From the IMG/VR virus record IMGVR_UViG_3300044635_001707, positions 924-64,923 of that record: a DNA stretch of 64,000 nt. One strand, written 5' to 3'. Shown in pieces: positions 16,184 to 63,089 of the stretch; the first letter of the stretch is position 1; every line of letters starts with the position of its first letter. Below the pieces are notes generated by a model. The model saw nothing but the letters and a program-made list of their open reading frames with translations. It was not told where the DNA came from and did not search any database. Both the position numbers and the translations under genes were made by a program. Origin of the DNA: a virus. Its lineage: Duplodnaviria; Caudoviricetes.

Positions 16184-17326
16184 ATGAAAGATTTGCAAAA
16201 AAGACAACAAACTTTAATCAATTTAATCACCCGTGTAGGTGGTCGTCAAAACATCCAGAAATGGATGGACGAGATTTTGAAAATTGATATTAGGTTGGAG
16301 GCTAGGACGATGTTTACATACAAAGGTTATTCAATTCTTGAAGCTGGAGACGAAGCCGGATTGCATTTCAACGGCAAAAAAGTACAGACAGACCTAGTGG
16401 CTGTCTACCGGATTGATGAGTTCGTAGAATTGTTAGATGAACATGGTTTAAACTGGGCTGCCCGCCTTCGGGCAGAAGAAAAAGATCCAACAAAAGAAAA
16501 ATTAGAACCGACAAATGAAGAGCTGATAATTTATCAACAAAAACGTCAGCATCAACAGATGCTACAAGATAGCTTTGACAACAACGAATGGAAGCTTCAA
16601 TGGCGGGAGGTTTTTGTGGCTCAGACCGGAACAGCCACGGAGCGAATTCCTGTCTACAAGCATCCAGCTTTTAGAGAAAGACACAACCTCACGATAACCC
16701 ACGAAGAAGACGCGCAAGCATGGCTCGCTGCGTCAGTAGCTAGACGTGAAATTCAGCAACTAAATGAATCACGATTTAAATTGTGGGTTGATCACCACTT
16801 CTGTGGTGGTATTTTTGAATCTACAGATGATGAATATTCTTATGAAAAATGGTGTCAAATGGAAGACATCATTAACGAAAACGATTATTATTCTACTTCA
16901 CCTGAAGTAGAGAAAGCCAGAGCCTACCTTACTAAATACAAGCTTCAAGGTGAAGCTGATGAAGAAAAAATTAGACAAGAAAAAGATAGGCAAATAGACG
17001 ATAATTATCGTCTGGCCACAGAAAAAATCTTCGGCATCCCTGGCATGAAGCCAGAATACTTGGAAAGAATGCGATACGGAATATATCTCCTTGGCGGCGA
17101 CAAGGGACGGAAATATCGTTACGCCGACTTTAGTGGTGAATACTGCTACAACCACATTCAAGTGTGGCATCAAAGCAGACCTATTTCTGGTGTTGACGAA
17201 ATAACACCAGAAATGATAAGCAACGCAGCTGATTATTGCAGGGAAAAGGGATATTCAGACTACAAAAAAGCTAGAGAGGGTAAACCTGTTAAATCCTTCG
17301 AGAAATGGCTACAAACCGTAGCCTAG
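16184..17326 (+). CDS. Hypothetical protein
   Basis: Long ORF after promoter; start uncertain. Confidence 0.7.
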   Translation: MKDLQKRQQTLINLITRVGGRQNIQKWMDEILKIDIRLEARTMFTYKGYSILEAGDEAGLHFNGKKVQTDLVAVYRIDEFVELLDEHGLNWAARLRAEEKDPTKEKLEPTNEELIIYQQKRQHQQMLQDSFDNNEWKLQWREVFVAQTGTATERIPVYKHPAFRERHNLTITHEEDAQAWLAASVARREIQQLNESRFKLWVDHHFCGGIFESTDDEYSYEKWCQMEDIINENDYYSTSPEVEKARAYLTKYKLQGEADEEKIRQEKDRQIDDNYRLATEKIFGIPGMKPEYLERMRYGIYLLGGDKGRKYRYADFSGEYCYNHIQVWHQSRPISGVDEITPEMISNAADYCREKGYSDYKKAREGKPVKSFEKWLQTVA

Positions 17327-17382
17327 CCCACCTGATGAGTCCGGCTGGCGACCGGACGAAACACTCCCTTGAGTGTCGTGGG
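17327..17382 (+). ncRNA. Hammerhead ribozyme type I (HH1)
   Basis: Stem I CCCAC/GTGGG, CTGATGA, stem II GTCCGG/CCGGAC, GAAA, stem III CACTC/GAGTG, GTC site (cut after 17377). Confidence 0.95.
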
Positions 17383-17409
17383 AAGCCGTTACATACCCAC
17401 TGGAAATCT

Positions 17410-17655
17410 ATGACCACTTACTCTTTTTTATCCCAAGAATTAAACACACAACTCGGTATCGTTGCCGATGTTATCATCGCCGACGATGAATGCCACGAGA
17501 TCACCCTTACTCAGGGTGATCACGTGATAGCCGCAACGATAGACCCTTTAACTTTGATAGGATTATTTCAAATGGGAGTCAAAGTCTCCCTTTTAGACAC
17601 TGAACTCACGGAAAATCAGAAGGCAGGATTGATGTATTCTTTAGTCTTAGACTAA
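17410..17655 (+). CDS. Small acidic protein flanked by two hammerheads
   Basis: ATG at 17410 just after HH1; the longer ORF-track start runs through the ribozyme. Confidence 0.7.
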   Translation: MTTYSFLSQELNTQLGIVADVIIADDECHEITLTQGDHVIAATIDPLTLIGLFQMGVKVSLLDTELTENQKAGLMYSLVLD

Positions 17656-17670
17656 AGGCAAACTTTGTAG

Positions 17671-17726
17671 CCCACCTGACGAGTCCGGTTGGCAACCGGA
17701 TGAAACTACCACCTGGTAGTAGTGGG
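17671..17726 (+). ncRNA. Hammerhead ribozyme type I (HH2)
   Basis: CCCAC-CTGACGA-GTCCGG..CCGGAT-GAAA-CTACC/GGTAG-TA-GTGGG; stem III covaries with HH1; cut after 17721. Confidence 0.93.
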
Positions 17727-17752
17727 AAGCCGTTACACCCCACTGGAGAAGG

Positions 17753-18049
17753 ATGAACAAAGCCTTAGAGCGTCCGCTTAAATGGCATCAAGAAAAATTC
17801 TATGCCATGAGGGAACAACAAGTAAGATGCTACCTGTTGTTCCAAATGACAGAAGACGGGGAGGAGCATAACCGCTTCTTCCCATACACAAAAGAAGGAC
17901 ATAAAGCCGCTTTAGCCTTAGCCAAGAAGCTAGGGCAAAGACCAGATCGAATTCAAGCCACCACCGAGAAACTGAAATGGATTCTACCCTACGGAGTGCG
18001 CTCCGTAGAAGATTACGAAAAATGGTGTAAAGAGTGGGGTGTCGCCTGA
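17753..18049 (+). CDS. Hypothetical protein
   Basis: GGAG RBS after HH2. Confidence 0.65.
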   Translation: MNKALERPLKWHQEKFYAMREQQVRCYLLFQMTEDGEEHNRFFPYTKEGHKAALALAKKLGQRPDRIQATTEKLKWILPYGVRSVEDYEKWCKEWGVA

Positions 18050-18453: not shown

Positions 18454-18822
18454 ATGAAAGGAATACTATGGGGCGTGCTACAAACGCCCCTGTCCACACC
18501 CCGACGTTACCCATTGGGAACGCCACACCACGTCACACTCCAGTTCGGGGTTGACCGCGACGACTGGAAACACCTAGAGGGTGTTGTTTTCCAAGCTACG
18601 GCTAAATTTGAAGCCTGGAATGACAAAATTCAGGCTGTAGCTCTAACGCTACCAGGTGACATCCCCTGTCAGAACGCTACCCCTCACATCAGTGTAAGCT
18701 GGTGCGAGGGCATCAAGCCCTATGAGTCAAACCTGATGCTTGCGTCGGATTTTCACTCAAAGTCGCTGTCCCAAACACTAGAATTCAAAATCGAATTCCT
18801 AGCCTGGGAACAACCAGAGTAA
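18454..18822 (+). CDS. 2H phosphoesterase (cyclic phosphodiesterase superfamily)
   Basis: Two HxT/S motifs: HHVTL and PHISV, followed by KPYESN. Confidence 0.8.
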   Translation: MKGILWGVLQTPLSTPRRYPLGTPHHVTLQFGVDRDDWKHLEGVVFQATAKFEAWNDKIQAVALTLPGDIPCQNATPHISVSWCEGIKPYESNLMLASDFHSKSLSQTLEFKIEFLAWEQPE

Positions 18823-29200: not shown

Positions 29201-32200
29201 GGTTCAGGAACAAGAGAGGTAGAGACCGTTGGTGGCAAAACAACGGGAAGTCTCGCCCCTACTTGTCGAGTGAGCGATCGCACTACAGAAGAGCGCGGCG
29301 CGTTCATAAGGTCATCCAAAACAGTTGCAAACCCGGTCAAACTCGCAGTCATGCTCCTATTGAGCAGAGCATTTAGATTAACCAGTAAGTCTTTGTTTTT
29401 ATTAATCAACGCTTGTGTGTTGACTTCTTGTTGTGTAATAGTTGCCCTTGCCGCAGTGCTAGGTCTGGACGGCAATATCAGTCGCGCGTCTGGATTTGCG
29501 GTAGTGCTGTTTGGCAATATTAACCGTGCATTTGGATTTACGGTAGTGCTGTTTGGTAATACTAATCGTGCATTTGGGTTGGGCGCGAAACTGCGGGGCG
29601 TAATTATTGTGCTAACAGGCTGTGGTACAACATTTTCCGTAACAGGTGAAGATTTTACATCCCTTCTTGCTTGCTGTAAAATTCCTGGTATTTCTGCCAT
29701 AGAAGCTCCAGTAATTCTAGCCATAACTTTACTAACTGTCGTGCTACTTGCTAGAATTTCCATTGCCTTAGAGGCGTTTAAGTCATTATATTTACCTTCT
29801 CTAAACCCTTTGGCAATCCTTTGATTTTGAGATTCTACTGTATTGGCGAAATGTTCAACTCTAGCTTTTTCTGATTCCGTCGCTGTAGCACTTTCATTGA
29901 CAGTTTTAAGCATTAATTCAGCAATTCTTTTATTGGCCAAAACCAAAGCTGCAACCGCACCATTTTCAAAGCCTTCGCCAAAATTCAATCCGATAGACTC
30001 CATTACCTTTGATGGTGATGCAATGCCAAATACTTTTTTGACTGCGCCTAAAACACCCTTAGCAAAACCAATTACTATCCCCAATACACCGCCGTTAGCG
30101 GATAAAAAGCCTTGCCCAAAAGAAGAGATTAGATTAATACCTACCTCTTTAAGCCCACCACCCTTACTAAATGCAGACTTAGCATTGTTGAATAAATTCC
30201 CTAAGAGGTTATTATTTCCCGTTGGCTGCTGGGATTCTTGCCCGTTGCCTAAAACGTATTCTTGGATTTTGGGATGATTTAAGAATTGCCCAAAATTACC
30301 TTTAGATGCAATATAAGGATTTGCTGCCAAATCTGTTAAATCGTCCAAACCCTTTCTGTCTAAGCGGTGTGTCTGAATATATGGATTGCCACCGATTAAT
30401 TCAGAATGAACTGAATGCCCTAATTGAAAATCATTGCCAGACTGTGTATTAAGAAAAGAAAAAAGCTCACGCCCTGTTTTTTTGTTGTATTTAGTAAATG
30501 CCTTGGTGTTACCAAATAAATTCTCTTCAATGCCTAATAAGCCTCGTAGCCATTTCTTTGACTCCAAAAATTTATATATCTTACTGCCTAAATTTTTAGG
30601 TAACTTAAACGGTGTATTTTTATCCGTATCGGTGTCTTGATGCCAGTCGTAGACATCGTTAATTTGCAAACCTCCGTCTTTGGTTTGTGTGTAATTGAAT
30701 CCCCCTAGTGTATGAGCCAGCGTGGGCAATGTCTTGTGTTTAACCATGCCCACCACGCCACCGTCAGGAAAATAACCATCACCTTTTTCGGCTGATTGCA
30801 TCATATTGAAAATAGTTGCAATTTCAGCCTCTCTAGCCAATTGTGGATTCAGCTTATGAACCTGGGTTGTACCTTGATAAAATGCCCCTAAATGCCTCAA
30901 GGGTGTTCGGATTGATTTTGGAACTAAATTAGTGTCTGCAACACCCATCATCGCAGTCCCTAGAATCATTCCTGGGATTGTCGCTTTACTTGCTTTCTTA
31001 GCATTATCAAAAACTTTTTTTGTAGTTTCTGAATTACTAGATACGGCATTTTTAATTGCCTGATCGTAAGATTCTATTCCTTCTGATGGTATTGATTTGA
31101 TATTTTTTAAACCATTGCCAACAACATCAGTTAGTAAATCACTAGCACCGGAAACATCAATTACACCTTTTTTGATTCCAATAGCCAATCCCGATGCAAT
31201 CATCAACCCCAATGCAATCATCACTTTAGATGGTGATTGAATTTCCATCTTGGCTTTAACAGCCTTAATCAAGTCGTCCAACATGGCGCGGGCAGCATCG
31301 GATACACCACCAGCAGCGTGTTGAATACCTTTCTTTAGTCCTGCATCTACTTCTATACCCAGACTTTCCGCTTGGGCGACATAGCCTTTTAATTGCTGGT
31401 CAAACAGTTTTTTGTCTGCAAGGTTTAGCTTGCCCAGACTCTTTTCTGCGGTGCTTGTATTTCTGGAAATACTAGACTTACCACTGCTATGAATCCTAGA
31501 TAATTCACTGTTAATATCTTTACTGAAACCCGCGTCTTGTCCAGTTTTTACATATCTATCAATAGTAGAAATTGCTTCTTTTGACCTGGATACAAAATTA
31601 GAAACCTCAGACCTTGCGGCACTGATATCTTCTTTTGTACCAGCATCACTGATGGCATATTTAACCTTTGCCTGAATCCTCTTGTACTCATCGCTGAAAT
31701 ATTTGTTTATTGCTATCAGCGACTGTTCAATACTATCCAAAGAAACCTGAGTATATTTCTTGGTATTTTTAGACGATGGAATAGAAGGTAATGGTGTTAA
31801 ATTATTTTCTGATTTTGTGGCGTTTTTATAGCCTTCAGATATATCAATATTTTTATGTATTTCAGATTGAATTGTTTTAAATAATGGCTTAATTTGCTCA
31901 GGAATATTTACAGGAATAGGCTCTAATTCCCGTTTTTGTTGAGGTGGTGGTAATGGAGATTTGTTTGCTTTAGGTGGCAGTTGCTTAGGTAGGGGTGCCG
32001 CATCTTGCCAAGGGTCTGAGATTGTTTTAGCAACAAAAGGTTTACTGGTTTTTGCCGTAGGCTCTGTTGACTTAACACTAACAGCAGCATCGCTCAACGC
32101 TTTAGCCGCATTTTTTAAATCTGATGCGGCTTCCTTGAGAATATCTGAAGAAGATTTAGCGATTGGTTCTACTGGTTTTGCCGACACTCCAGTCTTTAGA

Positions 32201-33579
32201 AAATCTTTAATAACTGGAGAAGCATTAGGCAATAATCTATTAAAAATAGACTCTACTGCTTTTTTTGATTGTGAAGCTATCCCTTCTCCAATATATTTAT
32301 TAACTGCACCTTTATCGCTACTTTCAGCAGCATCGAAGAATCCACTAATAGCATTTTGAACCCCAGGTGCAGAATTTTGAGTGACCGCTTTAGCGGATTG
32401 TCTAGCTTGTCTAATGGTTGCTAATTTAGCATTTTGAGCAACGCTTTCAATAGTGACATTAATGCTGTCAGAGAACGCCTTGTTTATCTCCGAAAATGTA
32501 CTAGAAATAACTCCGGAATTACTTTGTTTTATTGAACTGCCAGAATACTCCTTAATAGCATCCTCAATGATTGCCTTAACCCTAGCCTGCTCATTTTTGG
32601 GGTCTGATTGTGCTTTTTTGCCAACTCCAAAATATCTTAACGCACTGCTACTAGCTATCCTACTAGCACTTTCAAAGTCTACACCTATATCATCATTAGC
32701 GGCACTCCTGGTGGCTCTTCTACCCCTAGTGCCTTTTTCTACCCTACTATCATGAGTTCTAATGAACGCATCCATTCCATCTTTGAAAATAGCCTCAATG
32801 CGCTTCTGTTCATTCTTAGGGTCTGATTGTGCTTTTTTGCCAACTCCAAAATACCGTAAAAGCATATTTCCAGACATTCTAGTCATGTCATCCATGCTTA
32901 CACCAATAGTATCCTCAATGCTGCTATTGATACCTTTAGTCAGTCTTTTCCCCACATTCTCGAAAGCACCATCAATAATGGAACGCATGGGACTAGCAAC
33001 CACATCTACCCGTTGAGCTTTACTAGAAGATGCGCTGTCTTTTTGTGCTTGCTGTTGAGATGATGCAACGGAAGACTCACTTACAGCATCTCTAACAGCA
33101 CTTTGAACAGCATCGGTTAAGCTCTTTTCTAACTGTTTGCTTAACTCAGATTCAACGGTAATAGTAATAGTTTTATTTGATAATTTCCCTAATCTTTCTT
33201 CTAGTTCATCTAGTTTAGTAACATCAGTATTAACAACAATAGGATTATTATTAAAATATTTGTTAACCTCTTTAAGGTGTTGTACTTTAAGATTTAAATG
33301 TTTGTTTAAATCTGTTAAACTATCGTCGTCAACGTTAACAACAATAGGATTATTATTAAAATATTTGTTAACCTCTTTAAGGTGTTGTACTTTAAGGTTT
33401 AAATGTTTGTTTAAATCTGTTAAACTGTCATCGTCTACATTAATTTCTAAATTAATCTTCTCAAAAGTTTTTTCAATAGAACTTGCAGCCTCATAGGCTT
33501 TCTTCTTAGCTTGTTCCAAGGATTTTTCTAGCTGTGCAGTATCAGCACACAACTCAACAATTAATTCACCTAAATTCAT
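20233..33579 (-). CDS. Giant tail tape measure protein with GH24 lysozyme domain
   Basis: Tape-measure motif QILAKGKLSMEELRQQLGE, IASPSKVM motifs, lysozyme FENF..AY.D..SIGYG..NQLDALTSLTFNVG..LTARR..EKALF, C-terminal FANGG; follows tail chaperone. Confidence 0.9.
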   Translation of the reverse strand: MNLGELIVELCADTAQLEKSLEQAKKKAYEAASSIEKTFEKINLEINVDDDSLTDLNKHLNLKVQHLKEVNKYFNNNPIVVNVDDDSLTDLNKHLNLKVQHLKEVNKYFNNNPIVVNTDVTKLDELEERLGKLSNKTITITVESELSKQLEKSLTDAVQSAVRDAVSESSVASSQQQAQKDSASSSKAQRVDVVASPMRSIIDGAFENVGKRLTKGINSSIEDTIGVSMDDMTRMSGNMLLRYFGVGKKAQSDPKNEQKRIEAIFKDGMDAFIRTHDSRVEKGTRGRRATRSAANDDIGVDFESASRIASSSALRYFGVGKKAQSDPKNEQARVKAIIEDAIKEYSGSSIKQSNSGVISSTFSEINKAFSDSINVTIESVAQNAKLATIRQARQSAKAVTQNSAPGVQNAISGFFDAAESSDKGAVNKYIGEGIASQSKKAVESIFNRLLPNASPVIKDFLKTGVSAKPVEPIAKSSSDILKEAASDLKNAAKALSDAAVSVKSTEPTAKTSKPFVAKTISDPWQDAAPLPKQLPPKANKSPLPPPQQKRELEPIPVNIPEQIKPLFKTIQSEIHKNIDISEGYKNATKSENNLTPLPSIPSSKNTKKYTQVSLDSIEQSLIAINKYFSDEYKRIQAKVKYAISDAGTKEDISAARSEVSNFVSRSKEAISTIDRYVKTGQDAGFSKDINSELSRIHSSGKSSISRNTSTAEKSLGKLNLADKKLFDQQLKGYVAQAESLGIEVDAGLKKGIQHAAGGVSDAARAMLDDLIKAVKAKMEIQSPSKVMIALGLMIASGLAIGIKKGVIDVSGASDLLTDVVGNGLKNIKSIPSEGIESYDQAIKNAVSSNSETTKKVFDNAKKASKATIPGMILGTAMMGVADTNLVPKSIRTPLRHLGAFYQGTTQVHKLNPQLAREAEIATIFNMMQSAEKGDGYFPDGGVVGMVKHKTLPTLAHTLGGFNYTQTKDGGLQINDVYDWHQDTDTDKNTPFKLPKNLGSKIYKFLESKKWLRGLLGIEENLFGNTKAFTKYNKKTGRELFSFLNTQSGNDFQLGHSVHSELIGGNPYIQTHRLDRKGLDDLTDLAANPYIASKGNFGQFLNHPKIQEYVLGNGQESQQPTGNNNLLGNLFNNAKSAFSKGGGLKEVGINLISSFGQGFLSANGGVLGIVIGFAKGVLGAVKKVFGIASPSKVMESIGLNFGEGFENGAVAALVLANKRIAELMLKTVNESATATESEKARVEHFANTVESQNQRIAKGFREGKYNDLNASKAMEILASSTTVSKVMARITGASMAEIPGILQQARRDVKSSPVTENVVPQPVSTIITPRSFAPNPNARLVLPNSTTVNPNARLILPNSTTANPDARLILPSRPSTAARATITQQEVNTQALINKNKDLLVNLNALLNRSMTASLTGFATVLDDLMNAPRSSVVRSLTRQVGARLPVVLPPTVSTSLVPEPFKSTTIKPSLPTGLGFFPILASPAKPPAVTPSPFAPTSPPPPPIPPAPPSLSSPPPPPADGFLPIRVRTPQNATNQYLQLGKDLVTNLFTAVGDSIRQSTLSGYASLGQVMRNAVNAALFSLADTLKQPLYKGLLSQAQSALPWFMKFIPKTMQLIPMLKPLMPIIGGLTLGLGNSIVKNLLNNDVLKPGGFLTKLLSSVTRINLTSLSGGKAHGILGAISKIMNPVPNLVGTAGIGGPLSLAMGLFGPLMNTFSGILGLDPSTRSNPKNQAPTVERVLQEQTLANRKKAGLSNAKGGQASRELIENLGNTAVDSVLENLNIPMIPTSVIQGMTGRSINKQSGKIADVISSIGVQRSKTEKALERAMKSGTISPERLDALTKAALRRRGVDTTTREAMSREELEKARQDIIGKPLAISENERNLMFAMGDIERSRFKLGVPRAQRRLDYLTAKVLKERGVTFSDYTSMKQSGKLEETRRDLAANPNTTGVVGRLTQAYATNDQEALKGLLMQGLKKAGMSSEQLQNIDPKLLNTATAGLMATLTGLQAKFKEKGFDMGKALTQGFKDSVRNLANAKDDLEYNAKKAIGQANFGDAVGLIFRRMTRGTIATQDQFKEMYNQMGTGVKKALFSSSKEADAMFPNMLQFMGSLATTLAPVTSLFASLSPLFLPLAPIIGGIGAAVSMVMPHISKMLDGIQRVEVLQRRFTFLGGSKAGGEAEFKYAKDVAAKMNVPSEVAANSYSQLAIAARGSKMEGQGVKDLFEGITASLSALGISGQDASLVFMAYTQILAKGKLSMEELRQQLGEKFPPAMGVFAKSMGVSVPEMNALVASGSILSQDILPNVAKVLNQDYGASAANQAGGLVVALNKLGNVGFEITTIFTDKLGSTLGWFVGTFADGLALFSNTLGALIPLGQAFAIGFAATIAIGLTTIMTKVKPLVVLFGSLQNLLMATFTAVATNMMPMIIGVTADVADNWLGAEKDLITNMMDGVTNAVVATFSTVDSVMRSMSGGNFSFSSMFGGLVQGAEQAGNIIDWLKGVFSGFFKIIPPGFVELLAMVFMFEQGTGLMVMALAPAFKGFIGAVTGMFGGAAKAFVGVMTSMKIATELMMTSMSSAMAASEARIKIFSATMGFLRTALTHVAVAFGILMFSKGDFSNPMGDSLSKTTKELNNGLTEIRANVQKTADSFDKATNSVTKLGGTLADTLPSKGIQLDIRSFWGGGDFKWDDAIKERNKRDSASGSLMDAVGVGALGAAGAGAAFASGISVLSSILNSAVSTAATIAANKALIAGPVAPVSIFGRLAMAVTPLITAIMSPLGLIVVSIGGFIAAIVLATKALDLFAPKLTGKQKQLIADNKLEGYFDLGENARLTNAQQQILKYFEDQKKNIQNLKEFGASQGFTGKPGDFMADIKPLTSEQQNTFNNTPAISKLNQEIKDNNKRRLAAIADKKNSGASPQEIKDLQNSPGFKELENKSKQMRNVVALAAASFQIENTPENQRIDKELDGKIKKKQAEIDERRAAVSASRNLMAASSTDAFALSMGDGSDAGTIKLEDELKVLEAQKKNQQKLIKASVQRAFNFQEIKDVDKQLINATKKGVELSKALPSDKVRKEQGEVKQLIQQLYKRRQELVDSFGSPLPILENQLKKLEKYKEQLTLGEVEGIQGALITPAVQETQRQIEELKKQIAGVKPFDVKPVEEMLYTQATNAVKDANIKFERASSANRSKSNLSQSKVYSSAGTSQQIAPELANIQLAGLNDSRTLLEEKLKTNQIALDKIAQVIAVGGTNLAEAQSEYDKLTEDIMKDRESLTQNALETAKARRDMKQALIDQTKQVAEYYRTSVREAQSASIEFEKARITLEGSKIQNRLRQALIGAGNNIYTQFVEGIINIISKSTEIEKRELDFRKQQIDYRNNLDAIKLRAAELQQSLPGKIIPFDDEKVKRFNNQLEIVNIRVNSTNSQTQKVAKNIGTDAVNATNSLNNSFVSVGKTIDNIGEKIDSLSIKLQSTPRLFTGNSSVGSLDWFEPALGSPQSRPRLVVPTLPPVPFSPTPSTPPTTQSSIKLPSRINSVEVASLPGFPIQIAQFQKLSTDPKRNFKGTGSFTSPSGKTPFATPMVTPNPTSKPKPNPTSKPKPNPTSKPKPNPTSKPKPKPLVKPKPKPLVKTKSPALSSRLMEMVKKFENFSSKAYSDYNQYSIGYGTVAKSKSERISRTEATKRLNQELLDAQNQVKRLVKVPLNVNQLDALTSLTFNVGQGALKRSALLAKLNTGDYVAAANEFAKLNKADRVSKNVADALTARRLKEKALFNTAPPDGSPIYRNENKKPVVVKPVVVEFVNPNAKLESKKLDNAVINRKALEPDKLQEIISNAAELYGQTENVKNVANDLNYLAQANTEKLQQQLDLYRLIQQTTENIYQALSGIADLELDSTKTIEEGLSPYMSPMKRMELEAADYERSLQKKREGYEKSIRDAGDALKNQNPVIKRLIDVELVKKFPDDAKIRNDVSKLMSKTAQVNALQFIANTKALIRLNANIPAMIAAFKDKREGDEVIRVFGLDVQDARSSLDIEQKKIEQLKVLQTLDPLNPEFNKIADNENAIALKNNEIQYKEKQTAIADLLRTKQIDELRMQKRLEIAEQEYLLTEKTIKLKTSLDKINENTSFQNKLLERAQYLQDSIKGVSDSRSSLLKSYGLDFSAEKLDKQSAISSQGMEFDKASIQLEDFIEKNKLATEANRLTNEQINELRENLRLTNEYKLDAIKLQFSELASVIKNTTSGFRNGFKEFLLSTKSFGESLTDLFNSITKNLIDSLADIASKRMTDSLFGWVAGLFGGKGAGLASGGSFVGDVLPNTSFNMAFAGGMVGELPTFANGGIVGALNKERSLTGRVPHVIIASEGERVLNHKETAIWNKLQGGVAGFANGGVVGTGGNGTIASRMGNTTTINVPVSVAVGSDSEVDTRRLSQAVQAMVSDGIRREMRVGGSINRGNPYGR
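22715..22850 (-). repeat. Tandem 24/21-bp repeats encoding PNPTSKPK / PKPLVK linker
   Basis: Directly visible repeats N-terminal to the lysozyme domain. Confidence 0.9.
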
Positions 33580-45119: not shown

Positions 45120-45578
45120 TTATACTTCTCTTAATACTATTGTATATTCTTCCCATCCGTCCATCTCTATTGAGATGACTTCAAACCCGGTTAAGGGTTT
45201 GAAGATGACTTCTTTCTCCTCTGGATACTGAGAGAATCTAGAAACGTCTCTCCCGGTTTTTGACTCAATCACCAGAGTAATTGCTCTGTTGTCAGTCCTA
45301 GACAACGGAACACCCAAAGCATTAAACTTTTGGCTTATTGTGTAGTCTTTAGATGTGGACATAAAGCCCATGTCACGGTAGATTCTACCCACCACGAAAG
45401 TCAGTTTTATTTCCGATTTGTCCAGAGTTAAGCCCCGGTAAACAGTTCCGGTGAATCTTCTAACTTGTTCTAACTCTTCTACTATTTGTGATACTAGTGA
45501 GTCAGTTTTACCGTATCTGAGTTTTCTATTAATTGCGCCGTAATCTTGTTGTGTATATTGATTTATTGTAGTAGTCAT
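45120..45578 (-). CDS. ADP-ribosyltransferase (R-S-E clade, VIP2/Alt-like)
   Basis: YGAINRKLR, VYRG, GFMSTS, PEEKEVIF. Confidence 0.85.
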   Translation of the reverse strand: MTTTINQYTQQDYGAINRKLRYGKTDSLVSQIVEELEQVRRFTGTVYRGLTLDKSEIKLTFVVGRIYRDMGFMSTSKDYTISQKFNALGVPLSRTDNRAITLVIESKTGRDVSRFSQYPEEKEVIFKPLTGFEVISIEMDGWEEYTIVLREV

Positions 45579-57495: not shown

Positions 57496-57804
57496 ATGCA
57501 GATAAAGATAACCGAAAAAAACAGCTTCGCGCTGATAGAAATTCTTGCAGAAAATGGCAACCCTGCCAGCCCCCAAAATCCACTCGATGAGCAATCAGAA
57601 TTGGGGAAAGTCAATTTCCCCGAAGCCAACGGACAGTTGGCTGTCATTAGCGGGATGCCAGTCAGTGCGGTCGCACTAGTGGCACTGCACTACAAAAATC
57701 TCTTTGGCGCGACTGCTATCGCCAATCCCCGTCTTGGGGTGGCACTGGTGGTTCACTCCACCAACCCAGCCTACCCACTGGGTGCGTCAATCCCTTTGGC
57801 GTAA
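57496..57804 (+). CDS. Csx3/Crn3-like protein
   Basis: AVISG.P......HY......ANPRLG..LVVHS resembles Csx3 VISGRGP..H..YDPRLG.VVV.SH; similar length. Confidence 0.7.
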   Translation: MQIKITEKNSFALIEILAENGNPASPQNPLDEQSELGKVNFPEANGQLAVISGMPVSAVALVALHYKNLFGATAIANPRLGVALVVHSTNPAYPLGASIPLA

Positions 57805-58059
57805 TTGACCTGTGGCAGAACCGCACCGTTAAAAAGCGCGGTAGACCTGCCACAGGCCAGGGTGAATCAAGGTATATTCCTCTTGAGCTATTGCCTGCCG
57901 TGGACAAGCTTCTAGAGGAATACAGAAAGTAATAAAAATCCCTAGTCAATGGCTGGGGATTTTTATTTTGAAAATATTTTATTTTAGTATTGACATTATA
58001 GAGAAATTATTCTATAGTGTAAGAAGTTCAGGGAAACAAAAAATAAAGGAGTCAGGGAA

Positions 58060-58398
58060 ATGACAAATATTACAGCAATTAAAGTGGACGATTTTGATTC
58101 AACTAGCCTATCCTCCTCTATTAGGAGAGTAGGCGCAGAAAATTTTTCTGAAAATTTTCAAGAAGGCGATTGTTGGGTTGCGTGTCCCCAACAACTGTTG
58201 GCGAAAGACATCAAAAAAATAACAGTCATTTCGAGAAAGTTAGAGGATATAGTTTTGATAGAGTTTGGAAATAAGGACAAAATCAGAATAAAAAAATTTG
58301 AGGGAGGGAATCCGAGGGAGTGTATCGAGGAGGCGAATTTAGACTTTGAACACTTCGATTTAGATATATCAAACTTAAACAACTGGCTAATTGATTAA
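58060..58398 (+). CDS. Hypothetical protein
   Basis: After repeated promoter. Confidence 0.7.
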   Translation: MTNITAIKVDDFDSTSLSSSIRRVGAENFSENFQEGDCWVACPQQLLAKDIKKITVISRKLEDIVLIEFGNKDKIRIKKFEGGNPRECIEEANLDFEHFDLDISNLNNWLID

Positions 58399-58490
58399 CT
58401 AGCAACGTTAATCAATTAGCCAAGTTAACGAGTAACTGTAGTTTATTATTGCAGTTACTTTTTCTATCTCTTAACTAAGGAAATGAAACA

Positions 58491-58688
58491 ATGACTACAT
58501 ACCATATTGTATACGCAGAAAGAGAGTTTGCGAGAGAGATGGGCGACCCGATACTATGCATAATAGATGCTTCTTCAGAGCAAGAAGCATTAAAAAATTG
58601 CGCTGTCAGAAGCGGGATTATGGAGGTGAAAGCAATTCTCGCTAAAACGAAAGTTCAAAATACAGACCACCACACGGAAACAGAATAA
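58491..58688 (+). CDS. Small hypothetical protein
   Basis: AAGGA RBS. Confidence 0.55.
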   Translation: MTTYHIVYAEREFAREMGDPILCIIDASSEQEALKNCAVRSGIMEVKAILAKTKVQNTDHHTETE

Positions 58689-58946
58689 TTATCTTAATTA
58701 CCAGGTCTGCTGAACCATATTTTTAAACTGAGTATATTCAGCATCGAACAGGAACTTCACAGTTCCTGTTAGTCCATTTCTGTGTTTAGCAATTATAGTC
58801 TCTGAAACCCGGCTTCTAGAGGAATACAGAAAGTAAAAGAAATCCCTAGTTAATAGCTGGGGATTTTTATTTTAAAAATATTTTATTTTAGTATTGACAT
58901 TATAGAGAAATTATTCTATAGTGTAAGAAATTAAGGAAAAAGAAAG

Positions 58947-59498
58947 ATGCTATTAACAAAAACTGAACTGTATCCGCAATTTGAGCAAATAAAATTCAAG
59001 GTTGAAAGATTTTTCAACCTATTTGCTCAAATCGAAATAGTCAGACGTTCCTCCTGTGATATCGGATCTCTCCCCGAAGATATCGCATTAATCGTTTATG
59101 TCCCATACATAAACGCATGGTATGAGTCTAAACCTGACTCTAGAGGTAAAACCGCTAAATGTAAAAAAGAATTTTTTGATTTATCTTCTACCGAAAGCTT
59201 AGAAGATAAATACCATAAATATTTCAAAACCTCTGAGACTCTAGAGTTCCAAAAGGTCACTTTCTTACGTCCTTATGATTTTGAAAGGAAAAATCATGAA
59301 AAGCTATACGCTTCATCAAGAGATGCAAAAAAAACGAATAAAGAAGGTTATTACTTTGAATTTGAGCTTGCTGAATTAGATTCAGTAATTCAAATTCCTG
59401 AAAAATTATTGTATCCCAATAATTTAAAAAAGAAATTGTTTTCTTTTGCCACAGACAGCTTTGAAAACTGTCTGCTGTCAAAAACGATTCGATTTTAA
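58947..59498 (+). CDS. Hypothetical protein
   Basis: After repeated promoter. Confidence 0.7.
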   Translation: MLLTKTELYPQFEQIKFKVERFFNLFAQIEIVRRSSCDIGSLPEDIALIVYVPYINAWYESKPDSRGKTAKCKKEFFDLSSTESLEDKYHKYFKTSETLEFQKVTFLRPYDFERKNHEKLYASSRDAKKTNKEGYYFEFELAELDSVIQIPEKLLYPNNLKKKLFSFATDSFENCLLSKTIRF

Positions 59499-59500
59499 AG

Positions 59501-59944
59501 ATGAACCTCTCTCAAGTCCTCCACAAAATCTTGAGCAATTACAAAAGCATCTATGATGCTGCTCAGGAAATCTCGCTGCAAACAGGCGAGAAATTAGACA
59601 CAGTACACCACCGATTGTCCAAGTGGTGTAAAAAAGACCCTGAAACATGGGTCAAAATCAACCAAGCTTTAAACTTGCTTGGTTATGAAATCCAAATCAA
59701 GAAGCGAGGCAATATGAAAGCAATGTTAACTTCCAAAACACTGGCAGGGTCTGGTGGACTTGTCTCTGTAATCTATGAGGTCGTAGATTACGACGAAAGA
59801 GAGAATGCTATTTACGGCATCATTGATACCAATTTCAGGGGCATTGCCCTTGTAATTGAAGAAACTCCAGCCTCAAGAAAGGTTGAGGTTTACGCGACAG
59901 AATTACCTGTGCTTTCTCTTTTGAGAGAGTACGTGGACTTTTAA
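59501..59944 (+). CDS. HTH-containing protein
   Basis: SIYDAAQEIS..VHHRLSKW..P..ALNLLGYEIQI. Confidence 0.55.
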   Translation: MNLSQVLHKILSNYKSIYDAAQEISLQTGEKLDTVHHRLSKWCKKDPETWVKINQALNLLGYEIQIKKRGNMKAMLTSKTLAGSGGLVSVIYEVVDYDERENAIYGIIDTNFRGIALVIEETPASRKVEVYATELPVLSLLREYVDF

Positions 59945-60004
59945 GTATTTGCGGAACTCCTTAGTTCCGCGAATACCCTGTCCAATAACTGGAGATTTTT
60001 AAAC

Positions 60005-60412
60005 ATGATTATTGACTTTGGTAAATACAAAGGAAAAAATATTGGGGAAGTCCCCACTCAATATCTCGCATGGGGCGCAGTTTACCTCTCCAATCGATGG
60101 AGAGATGTTTTTGAACAGGAATACGACTCTCGGTTACATTCGAGATTGTATAGGTTTCAGGTGTTTTTAAACACCACAGAACCTGAAGAATGCCTGTCCC
60201 TTCCACAGGACTTACTGCGCTCTCTACGCCTCTACAAGAGGTTCTGGGGAAACAAGAAGATAGCTTACATAGAGAATGATGGTGATTTCATCATTCTTCC
60301 ACAAGAACTGGATGAGCGGCAAAAAGATACACTTGACTTTTACTTAAAAAGTACAAGTACCATGATGGAATATTGTTGTGAACTTAATCACAACAATTAC
60401 CGACAGTTCTAA
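60005..60412 (+). CDS. DUF3820-like protein
   Basis: FGKYKGKNIGEVPTQYLAW. Confidence 0.65.
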   Translation: MIIDFGKYKGKNIGEVPTQYLAWGAVYLSNRWRDVFEQEYDSRLHSRLYRFQVFLNTTEPEECLSLPQDLLRSLRLYKRFWGNKKIAYIENDGDFIILPQELDERQKDTLDFYLKSTSTMMEYCCELNHNNYRQF

Positions 60413-60536
60413 AAAAAAAGAAACCCCTGGTCAACGACTGGGGATTTTTTATTTTAAAAATATTTTATTTTACTAGTTGACATTGTAGAGAAATTATTCT
60501 ATAGTGTTAAACATGAGACAAAAGGAGATAAAGAGT

Positions 60537-60953
60537 ATGACTTTTGTGAAACCAACACTACCAAATAAAACAGTTAAAAAATACGATAAAGTCCTATTCG
60601 GTAGTGGGTCTAGCCGCCCCTACAGTCCGTATACTCTACTTACCAACGTAACTGTCACCACAAAGGATACACGCAGTACAGGAACAGTTAAATTCAATAT
60701 TTCTGGCACGTTGCCAGATGGTAGAACAATACAAACAGAAGGATTTTTCTACAAGAAAGGGCGCAGTCCTTGGAAGTTCAGCGGTGCTGGTCTAGCACCA
60801 TTGGAATATTCCGGTGGTATGTTAAGTCACTGCCAGGATGCAGTGCATTTTATGTTTGAGCCTGGAGAATGGGATAGGTCTTATCGCTACAAATTCCCTG
60901 AAACGCTTGTAACGGATACATGGTCTGCCAAGCAGACGTGGCAAGAATGGTAA
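60537..60953 (+). CDS. Hypothetical protein, first gene of ribozyme-punctuated operon
   Basis: AAGGAG RBS after promoter at 60477. Confidence 0.7.
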   Translation: MTFVKPTLPNKTVKKYDKVLFGSGSSRPYSPYTLLTNVTVTTKDTRSTGTVKFNISGTLPDGRTIQTEGFFYKKGRSPWKFSGAGLAPLEYSGGMLSHCQDAVHFMFEPGEWDRSYRYKFPETLVTDTWSAKQTWQEW

Positions 60954-61009
60954 GCCGAAACGGGAGCAATCCCGTCCGCACAGGATGACAACCTGCGCGC
61001 TGACGAGGC
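60954..61009 (+). ncRNA. Hammerhead ribozyme type II (HH3)
   Basis: GCC-GAAA-CGGGA-GCAA-TCCCG-TC-stem I (CGCACAGG..CCTGCGCG)-CTGACGA-GGC; cut after 60976. Confidence 0.88.
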
Positions 61010-61028
61010 AAGTTAAAGGAAGGAGAAT

Positions 61029-61256
61029 ATGAAAGCACTAGAAAGACCTGCGTACATAGAGTACGCACGACTAAAAGCCTCCCAGCTGGGAGAAGAAGGT
61101 CGCGTCAAAAGACAGATCAAGTCCAATCCAAAACTTGCGAAGTTCTGGAACTTGGGACACAGTGCCGTTGTCCCCAAGTCATTCCCCTCACGGGAATGCG
61201 AAATAGCCTTTTTACTTGGGCAAAGAAACGCCCAAGCATCCGACATGGATGAATAA
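61029..61256 (+). CDS. Small protein between HH3 and HH4
   Basis: AAGGAG RBS. Confidence 0.7.
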   Translation: MKALERPAYIEYARLKASQLGEEGRVKRQIKSNPKLAKFWNLGHSAVVPKSFPSRECEIAFLLGQRNAQASDMDE

Positions 61257-61257
61257 C

Positions 61258-61313
61258 TCCACCTGATGAGTCCGGCTGGCAACCGGACGAAACACTCTCT
61301 TGAGTGTCGTGGG
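61258..61313 (+). ncRNA. Hammerhead ribozyme type I (HH4)
   Basis: TCCAC-CTGATGA-GTCCGG/CCGGAC-GAAA-CACTC/GAGTG-TC-GTGGG; cut after 61308. Confidence 0.95.
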
Positions 61314-61340
61314 CAGCCGTTACATCCCACTGGAGAATTT

Positions 61341-61640
61341 ATGATTTATTCTGTTGGTTTTGATGAACAGGAATTGAGCAAGGTCGGGCTGGAAGCCGAC
61401 AAACTCTTGTCCGGACAAGAGTTGACCTATGACAAAAAATTAATAACATTTACCTCTTTCTCCTCCTATGAGGGGGAGGAAGAGTGTGACAGAGAGGAGA
61501 CCGACCTCCTCCCTGGAGATACGGTGATTGTGTCCTGGTGGACTCCCTTTGCCTACATCGAAAGGATGAGTCAGGACAAAATAAAAGTCATTGTTCTGGA
61601 AACAGAACACGGAGGTATTATCAGGGTAATTTCATCTTAG
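61341..61640 (+). CDS. Small acidic protein between HH4 and HH5
   Basis: GGAG RBS and ATG at 61341. Confidence 0.7.
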   Translation: MIYSVGFDEQELSKVGLEADKLLSGQELTYDKKLITFTSFSSYEGEEECDREETDLLPGDTVIVSWWTPFAYIERMSQDKIKVIVLETEHGGIIRVISS

Positions 61641-61641
61641 T

Positions 61642-61697
61642 CCCACCTGATGAGTCCGGCTGGCAACCGTCCGAAACGCTCCACTGAGTGTCGTGGG
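61642..61697 (+). ncRNA. Hammerhead ribozyme type I (HH5), two mismatches in stem II
   Basis: CCCAC-CTGATGA-GTCCGG/CCGTCC-GAAA-CGCTC/GAGTG-TC-GTGGG; cut after 61692. Confidence 0.8.
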
Positions 61698-61730
61698 CAG
61701 CCGTATAATTACACTGGATAAACTAAATTA

Positions 61731-61756
61731 AACCCGTCAGAAATGACGGGTTTTTT
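61731..61756 (+). terminator. Intrinsic terminator
   Basis: AACCCGTCA-GAAA-TGACGGGTT plus T-run. Confidence 0.8.
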
Positions 61757-62071
61757 ATTGCCCATTCTCTAATAGTTCCGCTAAAGTCTCCAGAAGCCAC
61801 ACCAAATCCTCTCTAGGCATCCATCCCAGCTTGTTAAATCTGTCCAGAATTTGCCGGAATCGCTCTTGCTTGTCGTCCATGATTAAAATATGCCGTTCGT
61901 GTGTCCCTACCTCAAACAATTGTATGTGAATAATTGTAGAGATAAATTTAATCCAATTAGCAAACCAATCGGCATAGTCTATTAATTGTGCAATCAATAT
62001 TAGGCATAAATAAACCCGCTAAAACTGTATTGATTTTAGCGGGTTTTAGTCATTGGTGCAATTCAAAAAGG

Positions 62072-62605
62072 TCACGCTATTCTCAAAAAAGTATCCAGCG
62101 TTTTTGGCGGTACGGGTAAGTGGGATGAGAACTCCAGATTGTATTTTTTTGCCCATCGCCTCAAGGTTTTAATCGTGGGAGATTTACCAATTTGACGGCC
62201 TAACCACGCAGGAACTTCCGAACCCTTGATGCCCTCAATGGCAATTCCGTCGCCCAATGCTTTATCAAGTTCCGTCTTCAATACCGGACTTGAATTTAAC
62301 CGCTTAACAATTTGAGGTAAAGTCACCCCTGTGTTGCACCCTACCGGTCTTTTAGTTCCGTTTTCTCTCTTCTGCTCAAATCGGATATATGCCAGCATCA
62401 TCAGCCATTGACAATGAGTTTTGCTGATAATCGGCTCTTCTCCTTTCTTTAATTTACGAAAATCGGGAACTTGGCAAATCTGCTTGTATTTCCGCCAAGT
62501 GCGATCGCTTATGGGGTCATTGTAAATATGAGCGCAAGCAGCCCACACCCAGCGTTCCGGATATCCTTGGGGTTCATTATTTTTCATTTCTCCACTCCTT
62601 CGCAT
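62072..62605 (-). CDS. Hypothetical DNA-binding protein
   Basis: Two HTH-like segments (ISDRTWRKY; PTIKTLRRWAK). Confidence 0.55.
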   Translation of the reverse strand: MRRSGEMKNNEPQGYPERWVWAACAHIYNDPISDRTWRKYKQICQVPDFRKLKKGEEPIISKTHCQWLMMLAYIRFEQKRENGTKRPVGCNTGVTLPQIVKRLNSSPVLKTELDKALGDGIAIEGIKGSEVPAWLGRQIGKSPTIKTLRRWAKKYNLEFSSHLPVPPKTLDTFLRIA

Positions 62606-63089
62606 TAATAAAATTAATATTGGCCGCTACTGCCGCTTGTCTGTCCTCTTCCCTATCTCCCACCATCAAATACTCGTGTCCAGGATACAAACTAATCCCA
62701 AAATTCAACATTCCTGGATTAGGTTTTCTAAAGTTGCCAAAATCTTCCCAGCGATTTGATAGTAGTGGACTCTGTCCGACTTCCCTGGCAAATTTAGATA
62801 GTCGGTAAAAAGTCTCACCCCCATCAGTGCAGAAGAAAATCATCTGCATTTCAGGGATTAAATCAAGGGTGATTTTCTGTTCTTGAAAACAATCTTCAAG
62901 GGACTTAAACCCTGCTTTCACGCCACCTTGATTGGTGACACCAATGATTTTGTAATCGTGATAGCGAGCGATCGCATCCTCAACTCCAGGAATCATCTCC
63001 TGGTCATAGGGGTCATTGATGAACGTCGCCCCTGACTTACTGCGGCGCACCGTTCCATCCAAATCCAAAAACAATACTTTACTGCTCAT
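62577..63089 (-). CDS. HAD-superfamily IIIA phosphatase (GmhB / polynucleotide 3'-phosphatase-like)
   Basis: LFLDLDGTV, VTNQGG, RKPNPGM, MVGDREED..AA. Confidence 0.9.
   Translation of the reverse strand: MSSKVLFLDLDGTVRRSKSGATFINDPYDQEMIPGVEDAIARYHDYKIIGVTNQGGVKAGFKSLEDCFQEQKITLDLIPEMQMIFFCTDGGETFYRLSKFAREVGQSPLLSNRWEDFGNFRKPNPGMLNFGISLYPGHEYLMVGDREEDRQAAVAANINFINAKEWRNEK

What the first reader, a model, noticed from the sequence alone, without database searches (positions are those of the whole stretch)
60477..61757. Operon in which every ORF is cut out by a hammerhead ribozyme
Seen: promoter (60477), ORF, type II hammerhead, ORF, type I hammerhead, ORF, type I hammerhead, terminator. Each ribozyme starts 0-1 nt after the upstream stop codon. 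Established: hammerheads leave 5'-OH and 2',3'-cyclic phosphate ends, the substrates of RtcB-type ligases. Inference: the transcript self-processes into monocistronic RNAs (60977-61308, 332 nt; 61309-61692, 384 nt) that could be stabilised or circularised mRNAs for early or anti-defence proteins. Two different hammerhead topologies serve the same role, which suggests selection for function rather than simple duplication.
Basis: partly seen in the sequence, partly recalled or inferred. Interest (0 to 1): 0.92.

Follow-up and report, generated by a model that had tools for sequence, protein, structure and literature searches.

The report
Hammerhead ribozymes flanking small phage genes
A small operon of a lake phage carries self-cutting hammerhead RNA motifs between its genes, an arrangement known in phages since 2011 whose purpose is still open; the third motif looks damaged in this genome.

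Summary
The layout is real. It reads: consensus-like promoter (60477-60505), ORF1, type II hammerhead (cut after 60976), ORF2, type I hammerhead (cut after 61308), ORF3, a third type I copy (cut site 61692), terminator (61730-61753). All three motifs have a full catalytic core and start right after a stop codon.

Rfam finds HH1 and HH2 only below its gathering scores and does not report HH3. HH3 has two mispairs in stem II and is predicted not to adopt the hammerhead fold. Its counterparts in two relatives are intact.

The type I unit is an 86-nt repeat that runs on to the ribosome-binding site. It has four copies in this 65-kb phage record and further copies in nine other fetched contigs (six IMG/VR, two metagenome, one MAG). 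Stems covary: 7 pairs have compensatory changes.

Close relatives keep the ribozymes but carry different or extra genes between them.

This matches the clustered phage hammerheads of Perreault et al. 2011, who proposed processing into single-gene mRNAs and looked for circles without finding any. This scan had already followed up the second cluster at 17.3 kb.

No ligase gene, junction or other evidence supports circular mRNAs or an anti-defence role. Verdict: a new member of a known kind.

The parts
60477..60505 (+). Sigma-70-like promoter TTGACA-17-TATAGT. It is the third copy of a repeated terminator-plus-promoter module (the others are at 57926-58040 and 58830-58943).
   Evidence: 11 of 12 consensus matches; repeat families D5 and D7, 3 copies each.
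60537..60953 (+). ORF1, 138 aa, no known family. The ribosome-binding site AAGGAG lies upstream.
   Evidence: 3 homologue clusters at 57-96% identity, all hypothetical.
60954..61009 (+). HH1, a type II hammerhead. Stem II is GCC/GGC. GAAA is at 60957-60960. Stem III has a GCAA loop. C17 is at 60976, so the cut falls between 60976 and 60977. Stem I hairpin is 60977-60999, with one A.C mismatch. The core CUGACGA is at 61000-61006.
   Evidence: RF02276, 30.6 bits, below the gathering score of 37; MFE is the hammerhead fold; the same ribozyme is present in L004 and L129.
61029..61256 (+). ORF2, 75 aa, no known family. It is a replaceable cargo gene: L004 carries an unrelated 191-aa ORF at this position.
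61257..61314 (+). HH2, a type I hammerhead. Stem I is UCCAC/GUGGG. The core CUGAUGA is at 61263-61269. Stem II is 61270-61288 and stem III 61292-61307. C17 is at 61308, so the cut falls between 61308 and 61309.
   Evidence: RF00163, 26.9 bits, below the gathering score of 34; (model R1, 102.7 bits); covariation.
61315..61340 (+). Conserved 3' tail of the type I repeat. AGCCG (61315-61319) can pair with loop II UGGC (61277-61280) as a pseudoknot. It is followed by CCCAC and the ribosome-binding site UGGAGA of ORF3.
   Evidence: the repeat runs on to the ATG; pseudoknot helix 84% paired, one compensatory pair, from L007.
61341..61640 (+). ORF3, 99 aa, no known family. Weakly similar to the ORF at 17410-17655, which follows another copy of the same ribozyme.
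   Evidence: (36% identity over 45 aa, E 1e-4 for the single comparison).
61641..61698 (+). HH3, a type I copy with an intact core, stem I and stem III, but two mispairs in stem II (U61670, C61671). The nominal cut is between 61692 and 61693. It is predicted to be impaired here.
   Evidence: not reported by Rfam; the counterparts in L004 and L130 are intact.
61730..61759 (+). Intrinsic terminator: 10-pair stem plus a T run.
17326..17383 (+). Further type I copy of the same repeat, placed after the stop of the 396-aa ORF and before the ORF at 17410-17655. The cut falls after 17377.
   Evidence: (RF00163, 24.0 bits).
17670..17727 (+). Further type I copy, with compensatory changes in stem III and a GUA cut site. 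It lies before the ORF at 17753-18049.

Best explanation
This is a short accessory operon of a temperate, probably cyanobacterial, lake phage, in which hammerhead self-cleaving ribozymes sit in the gaps between genes.

Proposed mechanism (inferred from the anatomy; no cleavage was measured here):

- Transcription starts near 60512 and ends at the terminator near 61760.
- HH1 (type II) and HH2 (type I) fold and cut after 60976 and 61308.
- ORF1 mRNA is left with a GNRA-capped stem III hairpin and a 2',3'-cyclic phosphate at its 3' end.
- ORF2 mRNA starts with a 5'-OH and the stem I hairpin.
- ORF3 mRNA starts with a 5'-OH, followed by the conserved tail and ribosome-binding site that belong to the ribozyme repeat itself.

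Each gene would thus get standard ends that do not depend on its neighbours. That fits the observation that relatives swap, add or drop genes exactly between the ribozymes.

HH3, which would remove the terminator piece, carries two stem II mispairs in this genome and probably cuts poorly or not at all. It is intact in relatives.

The array is a new member of the clustered phage hammerheads described in 2011.
For: Core and helices: read directly and found by a descriptor that hits once in 100 simulated windows. Sub-threshold Rfam matches with E 6e-4 to 8e-4 in the 1.6-kb scan.

Type I family: 20 matches (19 distinct rows) from 10 sources. 95.4% of cells are paired and 7 of 22 pairs change on both sides; 0 of 500 shuffles reach this, and slid controls pair at 25-46%. 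The alignment was fitted to the model, so it leans towards the structure.

Type II family: in 118 distinct IMG/VR sequences that share HH1's stem III and core, stem I closes with 6 or more contiguous pairs in 102 of 118. Shuffled controls reach this in 10 of 2360. There are 72 different 5' strands.

Same layout in relatives:
- L004: ORF1, type II, a different 191-aa ORF, type I, ORF3, intact type I, terminator.
- L129: ORF1, type II, an extra ORF, type II, ORF, type I, ORF3.
- L130: type I, ORF3 homologue at 56% identity, type I, another ORF.

The repeat includes the ribosome-binding site and runs up to the ATG.

Precedent: Perreault et al. 2011 (PMC3088659, passages) describe clusters that flank single genes of non-constant identity in prophages. 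Three arrays cleaved in vitro and one in E. coli. D. vulgaris type II hammerheads near phage-like genes were captured from cells (PMC8782182, passages).
Against: No match reaches Rfam's gathering score.

No cleavage data exist for these sequences.

HH1 has an A.C mismatch in stem I and only a 3-bp stem II. A 3-4 bp stem II is, however, the usual form in the 118 relatives.

HH3 fails the published screening rule against multiple mispairs in a short stem, and it is predicted to misfold.

Two neighbouring operons behind the same promoter repeat (57990-58830 and 58894-60443) pack several ORFs without any ribozyme. Ribozymes are therefore not needed for expressing such operons in this phage.

The stability or insulation benefit is inference only.
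Confidence: 0.75

Rival explanations
1. The ribozyme repeats matter mainly as DNA. They act as shared homology blocks at which related phages recombine and exchange gene cassettes, or as selfish hitch-hiking units. On this view RNA cleavage brings little or no benefit to expression.
For: The window and L004 are 96% identical up to the end of HH1 and 93.5% identical from 12 nt before HH2, with unrelated DNA in between (228 nt against 577 nt). L129 has one extra unit of ribozyme plus ORF. Sister operons in this phage work without ribozymes. HH3 has decayed here without loss of the locus.
Against: Cores are intact, and stems keep pairing through compensatory changes in 7 pairs. This points to selection on the RNA fold rather than on DNA identity alone. 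Plain recombination hot spots would not need a conserved catalytic core.
Confidence: 0.15
2. The excised units, above all ORF3 between two type I copies of one family, are joined head to tail into circular mRNAs, either by a host RtcB-type ligase or by hammerhead self-ligation.
For: HH2 and HH3 are of one family, so the joined ends of the 384-nt unit would rebuild a complete hammerhead, as in viroid or retrozyme monomers. Cleavage ends are the substrates of such ligases (general knowledge; review PMC6765202, passages).
Against: RtcB, RNA_ligase and 2'-5' RNA ligase families have no match in the record, which CheckV rates 67% complete. HH3 is impaired here. No reading frame of either unit is free of stops around a circle. 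Perreault et al. state that they could not detect circular or spliced products for comparable arrays.
Confidence: 0.06
3. The motifs are chance look-alikes or dead relics with no activity.
For: All Rfam scores lie below the gathering thresholds. HH3 is damaged.
Against: One descriptor hit in 100 simulated windows against 4 observed. The motifs are conserved, with covariation, across ten sources. Their placement at gene boundaries is the same in relatives.
Confidence: 0.04

Closest known systems
Clustered type I/II/III hammerheads that flank single genes in prophages (Perreault et al. 2011, PLoS Comput Biol, PMC3088659). Examples are the triple arrays of Agrobacterium tumefaciens (around ardA), Clostridium scindens and Azorhizobium caulinodans.
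   Same: Several hammerheads lie within about 1-2 kb of a phage genome. They sit between genes, mix topologies and flank genes whose identity is not constant. A pseudoknot serves as the tertiary contact. The proposed role is processing of a polycistronic RNA into single-gene mRNAs.
   Different: The host and phage lineage differ: an uncultured lake phage rich in the HIP1 octamer. Here the type I unit is a repeat that also carries the ribosome-binding site of the next gene and occurs four times in one genome. No activity has been measured. I could not see that paper's supplementary alignments, so this family may already be listed there.
Type II hammerheads of Desulfovibrio vulgaris near phage-like genes, captured from cells by cyPhyRNA-seq (Olzog et al. 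2021, PMC8782182)
   Same: Type II topology, with phage-like and hypothetical genes next to them.
   Different: Those are single ribozymes at three separate places rather than an array, and their cleavage was tested in cells.
Tandem hammerheads of viroids, satellite RNAs and retrozymes
   Same: Two ribozymes of the same type bracket a unit whose joined ends would rebuild the ribozyme.
   Different: Those units are replicating or retrotransposing circular RNAs. Here the unit is an mRNA of a DNA phage, and no circle, replicase or reverse transcriptase is in evidence.
Synthetic ribozyme insulators such as RiboJ (recalled from memory; no call supports this)
   Same: A hammerhead upstream of a ribosome-binding site cuts away the upstream context and leaves a defined 5' end.
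   Different: RiboJ is an engineered part. Whether the natural units insulate expression has not been tested.

Membership tests
Hammerhead ribozyme (Rfam clan CL00010: RF02276 type II, RF00163 type I) | Conserved core CUGANGA ... GAAA, with the A15.1-U16.1 pair and H17 at the cut site | tested here: met
   All three motifs: CUGACGA/GAAA/GUC in HH1 and CUGAUGA/GAAA/GUC in HH2 and HH3 (alignments).
Hammerhead ribozyme | HH1 and HH2: three helices around the core, with standard pairs next to the core and no multiple mispairs in a short stem (screening rule in the methods of PMC3088659) | tested here: met
   The MFE equals the hammerhead fold for both, and both pass the descriptor. HH1 has one A.C mismatch at the fourth pair of an 8-pair stem I.
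Hammerhead ribozyme | HH3: the same helix rule | tested here: not met
   Stem II has two adjacent mispairs. HH3 is the only one of 13 aligned copies with unpaired cells at those two pairs. Its canonical fold lies 4.1 kcal/mol above the MFE, and it fails the descriptor.
Hammerhead ribozyme | Score at or above Rfam's gathering threshold | tested here: not met
   No matches at gathering. Scores are 30.6 against 37 and 26.9 against 34 bits; HH3 is not listed.
Hammerhead ribozyme | Helices supported by covariation among relatives | tested here: met
   Type I: 7 of 22 pairs change on both sides, and 0 of 500 shuffles reach this. Type II: stem I has 6 or more closing pairs in 102 of 118 distinct sequences, with 72 different strands.
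Hammerhead ribozyme | Site-specific self-cleavage that leaves 2',3'-cyclic phosphate and 5'-OH ends | not testable with these tools
   Only Logan contigs were available for the RNA runs, and these cannot show RNA ends.
Clustered phage hammerheads (Perreault et al. 2011) | Several hammerheads close together that flank single genes or short gene blocks in a phage genome | tested here: met
   Three motifs lie within 750 nt around ORF2 and ORF3. The record has an integrase, a DnaB helicase, a large terminase and a major head protein.
Clustered phage hammerheads (Perreault et al. 2011) | The identity of the flanked genes is not constant among relatives | tested here: met
   ORF2 is replaced in L004. 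L129 has an extra unit. L130 has a different downstream gene.
Clustered phage hammerheads (Perreault et al. 2011) | Pseudoknot tertiary contact: loop II with the 3' tail in type I, loop I with the tail after stem II in type II | tested here: inconclusive
   Type I: the 5-pair helix is 84% paired, with one compensatory pair that comes from the single distant member L007. HH1 can form only UGAC/GUUA, 4 pairs including one G.U (read). Among 108 type II relatives, 37 have a Watson-Crick run of 4 or more, against 10% with shuffled tails; HH1 itself was filtered out of that count.
Viroid- or retrozyme-like circular RNA | A ligase is available to join the ends | tested here: not met
   PF01139 (RtcB), PF09414 and PF13563 have no match in the record, which is rated 67% complete. 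The host genome is unknown.
Viroid- or retrozyme-like circular RNA | Head-to-tail junction in RNA | not testable with these tools
   No raw RNA reads of this phage were on offer.

The most novel reading that the evidence does not exclude
In phages of this group whose two type I ribozymes are both intact (L004, L130), the 384-nt ORF3 unit is excised. Because its ends rebuild a complete hammerhead, it is re-joined into a circular, translatable mRNA by self-ligation or a host RtcB-type ligase. That would make it a viroid-like processing cycle used by a DNA phage to make a long-lived message. In this window the damaged HH3 would have switched that cycle off.
Probability: 0.05. Interest if true: 0.85.

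Novelty: new member of a known kind. Interest (0 to 1): 0.35.

Why it matters
What hammerhead arrays do in phages has been an open question since 2011. Reviews from 2017 and 2019 still call it open (PMC6155905; PMC6765202).

This locus is a compact test case with several useful properties:

- It has one promoter, three genes, two ribozyme topologies and one terminator within 1.3 kb.
- It offers a natural comparison between an impaired ribozyme (HH3 here) and an intact one (L004).
- Close relatives differ only in the cargo gene between the ribozymes.

It could be used to ask whether cleavage sets mRNA stability, insulates each gene from its neighbours, or only marks recombination joints.

It also gives a practical warning. 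Gene callers read the ribozyme as a coding N-terminal extension: the 124-aa call P0002 and the 124-aa ORF at 61266-61640.

Tried and rejected
RNA evidence. The look-up of sequencing runs listed 24 runs from 22 studies. Nineteen DNA-type lake or freshwater runs hold half or more of the sampled words; three of them are marked as possible sources, and runs of one year may belong to one campaign. The RNA-type runs hold only small shares. I laid X20-X23; all are Logan contigs. Pieces cover 61007-61262 (ORF2) in all four runs, plus parts of 59900-60762. No joints were listed. The pieces stop at 61207-61262, close to the start of the four-copy repeat (61259), where an assembler would break anyway, and not at the predicted cut at 61308. 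This says nothing for or against cleavage, circles or expression level.

Extended stem I. I tested whether the last codons of the upstream ORF pair with the tail. The cognate duplex energy averages -8.64 kcal/mol over 15 copies, against -7.9 (sd 3.2) for 194 non-cognate combinations. Not supported.

Link to RNA end-healing genes. The phage encodes a PNK3P-type phosphatase (62577-63089, E 3.8e-8) and a 2H/CPD-type phosphoesterase (18454-18822, E 7.8e-7). Both act on the kind of ends that ribozymes leave. However, PNK3P occurs in only 3 of 38 hammerhead-bearing virus records of 30 kb or more, and two of those three are relatives of this phage. There is no general association.

Protein function. 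Pfam and PHROGs give nothing for ORF1-3 or for the two ORFs at 17.4-18.0 kb. The AlphaFold models of ORF3 (pLDDT 38.1) and ORF1 (pLDDT 50.2) are too poor to search with, so I ran no fold search.

ORF2 against the ORF at 17753-18049. They share only the first six residues, KALERP.

Phage collection. A blastn search of 60400-61800 found no match.

Endless ORF on a circle. None: every frame of both units contains stops.

Literature. Searches for hammerhead plus cyanophage returned 8 papers, none about this by title. Searches for hammerhead/prophage/circular RNA/RtcB found no report of circular mRNAs from phage hammerhead arrays.
Full report
WHAT THE RECORD IS.
The window is nearly all of a single 64,923-nt virus record, rated 67% complete. 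It encodes an integrase, a DnaB-type helicase, a large terminase and a head protein/protease. It also encodes a Rha regulator, a dCTP deaminase-like protein, ThyX and a C5 methylase. GC content is 40.7%. The octamer GCGATCGC occurs 17 times; from base composition I estimate about 0.4 by chance. From my own knowledge, this HIP1 excess is typical of cyanobacteria. DNA of the stretch is held by many lake-water metagenome runs. I read the record as a temperate phage of a freshwater cyanobacterium. The host is an inference.

THE OBSERVATION.
- A terminator at 60425-60443 ends the previous operon.
- A promoter TTGACA-17-TATAGT lies at 60477-60505, matching 11 of 12 consensus positions. Terminator and promoter together are the third copy of a repeated module (families D5 and D7).
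- ORF1 (60537-60953) is followed directly by GCC-GAAAC-GGGA-GCAA-UCCC-GUC, then a hairpin, then CUGACGA-GGC. That is a type II hammerhead with C17 at 60976.
- ORF2 (61029-61256) is followed directly by CUCCAC-CUGAUGA-stem II-GAAAC-stem III-GUC-GUGGG. That is a type I hammerhead with C17 at 61308.
- ORF3 (61341-61640) is followed by a second copy of the same type I unit, with C17 at 61692.
- A terminator follows at 61730-61753.
- The units are 332 and 384 nt long.

IS IT MORE THAN CHANCE?
Rfam's gathering thresholds are not reached anywhere in the window. In a scan of 1.6 kb, HH1 scores 30.6 bits for RF02276 (E 8e-4) and HH2 scores 26.9 bits for RF00163 (E 6e-4). HH3 is not listed among 20 matches up to E 10. 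Over the whole window the E-values are 0.032 and 0.024. A further type I match appears at 17326-17383 (24.0 bits, E 0.23). No other ribozyme class appears. A descriptor that I wrote myself (core, three helices, H17) finds four hammerheads in the window and one in total in 100 simulated windows.

THE TYPE I UNIT IS A REPEAT FAMILY.
The repeat finder gives four copies of an 86-nt unit, at 17328, 17672, 61259 and 61643. The unit runs from stem I through the ribozyme, then a conserved tail (GUGGG-N-AGCCG-UUACA-Y-CCCAC-UGGAGA), up to the ATG of the next gene. An exact pattern taken from it matches 6 IMG/VR contigs at 11 places and 2 MAG contigs. A covariance model (R1) finds exactly the four copies in the window, and further copies in loci reached through ORF3 homologues.

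On 20 matches (19 distinct rows) from 10 sources, 95.4% of cells are paired. Seven of 22 pairs change on both sides. None of 500 shuffles reaches these values, and slid controls pair at 25-46%. That alignment was fitted to the model's structure, so it leans towards it. The MAFFT alignment of 13 copies gave 95.8% paired and three compensatory pairs.

A pseudoknot between loop II (UGGC) and the tail (GCCG/A) is 84% paired. Its one compensatory pair comes from the single distant member L007 (GGAUA with UAUCC). It is therefore plausible but thinly supported.

HH1.
Among 118 distinct sequences:
- Stem I closes with six or more contiguous pairs in 102, against 10 of 2360 shuffles, using 72 different 5' strands.
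- Stem II has 2-3 pairs beyond G10.1-C11.1 in 107.

HH1 has the usual short stem II. It has one A.C mismatch in stem I, which puts it among the 3 of 118 with only three contiguous closing pairs. Its MFE is still the hammerhead fold. In L129 a sister ribozyme after the same ORF1 has a fully different, fully paired stem I (UAUCCAAG/CUUGGGUA).

HH3 IS PROBABLY IMPAIRED HERE.
Its stem II reads GUCCGG...CCGUCC instead of CCGGAC, which gives two adjacent mispairs. It is the only one of 13 aligned copies with unpaired cells at those pairs. Its MFE is not the hammerhead fold (z +0.08). The canonical fold costs -13.1 against -17.2 kcal/mol. The competing fold uses G12 of the core. The Boltzmann weight is 0.0002, against 0.24 for HH2. 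The counterparts in L004 and L130 are intact. By the screening rule of Perreault et al. (multiple mispairs in a short stem) HH3 would be set aside unless shown to be active.

RELATIVES KEEP THE RIBOZYMES AND CHANGE THE CARGO.
- L004 is 96.5% identical to the window from 59501 to 61016 (ORF1 and HH1). It is 93.5% identical from 61245 to 61844 (HH2, ORF3, HH3, terminator). Between these blocks it has 577 nt encoding an unrelated 191-aa ORF, in place of the 228 nt of ORF2.
- L129 reads: end of ORF1, type II, an extra ORF, type II, the L004-type ORF, type I, ORF3.
- L130 has an ORF3 homologue of 56% identity, flanked by two type I copies and followed by yet another ORF. One of those copies has an extra A after CUGAUGA.
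- Some copies end an operon, as HH3 does (L003, L005).
- ORF3 is weakly similar to the ORF that follows the 17328 copy, so ribozyme and gene may have duplicated together.
- Two sister operons behind the same promoter repeat have no ribozymes.

WHAT IS KNOWN.
Perreault et al. 2011 (PMC3088659; I read the passages returned, not the whole text or supplements) state several points:
- Multiple hammerheads often flank individual genes or short gene blocks in prophages.
- The genes are not constant.
- Spliced or circular products were considered but not detected.
- Three triple arrays cleaved in vitro, and one cleaved in E. coli.
- Pseudoknots commonly give the tertiary contact.

Reviews of 2017 and 2019 (passages) still call the role open. 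This scan had already followed up the 17.3-kb cluster and the CCCAC tail in this same genome. My results agree with those notes, but the notes are not independent evidence.

MECHANISM.
- Shown here: sequence, predicted fold, covariation and synteny.
- Inferred: cleavage at 60976 and 61308, which gives ORF1 a hairpin-capped 2',3'-cyclic-phosphate 3' end and gives ORF2 and ORF3 5'-OH ends with a standard leader.
- Inferred: this makes each gene's expression independent of its neighbours, which would suit units that are exchanged between phages.
- Not supported: circular mRNAs. The record has no ligase, no endless frame exists, HH3 is damaged, and I have no junction data.
- Not supported: an early or anti-defence role. 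There are no family matches, the few homologues are hypothetical, and the structure models are unusable.

VERDICT.
The feature is real and neatly organised, but it is of a known kind. One of the three ribozymes is probably defective in this genome. Interest 0.35.

Noticed in passing
window 57926-58040, 58830-58943, 60411-60526: There are three copies of a module of about 115 nt, made of an intrinsic terminator directly followed by the same TTGACA-17-TATAGT promoter. The module cuts this region into small, equally driven operons. Only the last operon carries ribozymes.
   Followed up: partly
window 18454-18822 (+) and 62577-63089 (-): A 2H/CPD-type phosphoesterase (Pfam tRNA_lig_CPD, E 7.8e-7) lies about 700 nt downstream of the 17.3-kb hammerheads. 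A PNK3P-type HAD phosphatase (E 3.8e-8) lies about 800 nt from the 61-kb array. Both enzyme types act on 2',3'-cyclic or 3'-phosphate ends. PNK3P is not generally linked to hammerhead-bearing phages (3 of 38 records). An anti-defence role for the 2H protein is at least as likely.
   Followed up: partly
window 61266-61640 and 17305-17655; protein P0002: The AUG inside the CUGAUGA core is in frame with ORF3, and likewise with the ORF at 17410. ORF lists and public gene calls therefore read the ribozyme as an N-terminal extension of 25 residues (MSPAG(N/D)RTKHS...). This is an annotation trap.
   Followed up: partly
window 61626-61640; alignment A2: The last residues (VISS) and the first residues (IYSVGF) of ORF3 are invariant even in homologues of 56-63% identity. 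The ribozyme repeats that abut or overlap both ends may constrain them, but my test for pairing between the ORF end and the ribozyme tail was negative.
   Followed up: partly
L130 2426-2523; L005 5737-5834; L003 2135-2227: Three natural variants of the type I unit: an extra A after CUGAUGA (L130); an extra U there together with a fully compensated stem II, GGGCGG/CCGCCC (L005); and a copy with a shortened stem III (L003).
   Followed up: no
window 45120-45578 (-): A 152-aa stand-alone ADP-ribosyltransferase domain (Pfam ADPrib_exo_Tox E 1.2e-9, ART E 6.3e-9). It sits within a set of five repeated promoter-leader units (44.9-47.6 kb; repeat families D1, D2 and D9).
   Followed up: no
window 57496-57804 (+): A weak Csx3-like match, below Pfam's cut-off (19.5 bits against 21, E 9e-4), in a 102-aa ORF.
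   Followed up: no
window 20233-33579 (-): A single ORF of 4448 aa with internal tandem repeats (periods of 24, 42 and 105 nt). It lies downstream of the structural genes on the minus strand.
   Followed up: no
window 72-154 (-): A tRNA-like match just under Rfam's threshold (27.9 bits against 29), next to the integrase gene (474-1550). It may be an attachment-site remnant.
   Followed up: no
protein P0007: An ORF1 homologue of 85% identity is filed under a Candidatus Nanopelagicaceae MAG on a 2.6-kb contig. Given the HIP1 excess in the phage, this looks more like a binning artefact than a host assignment.
   Followed up: no
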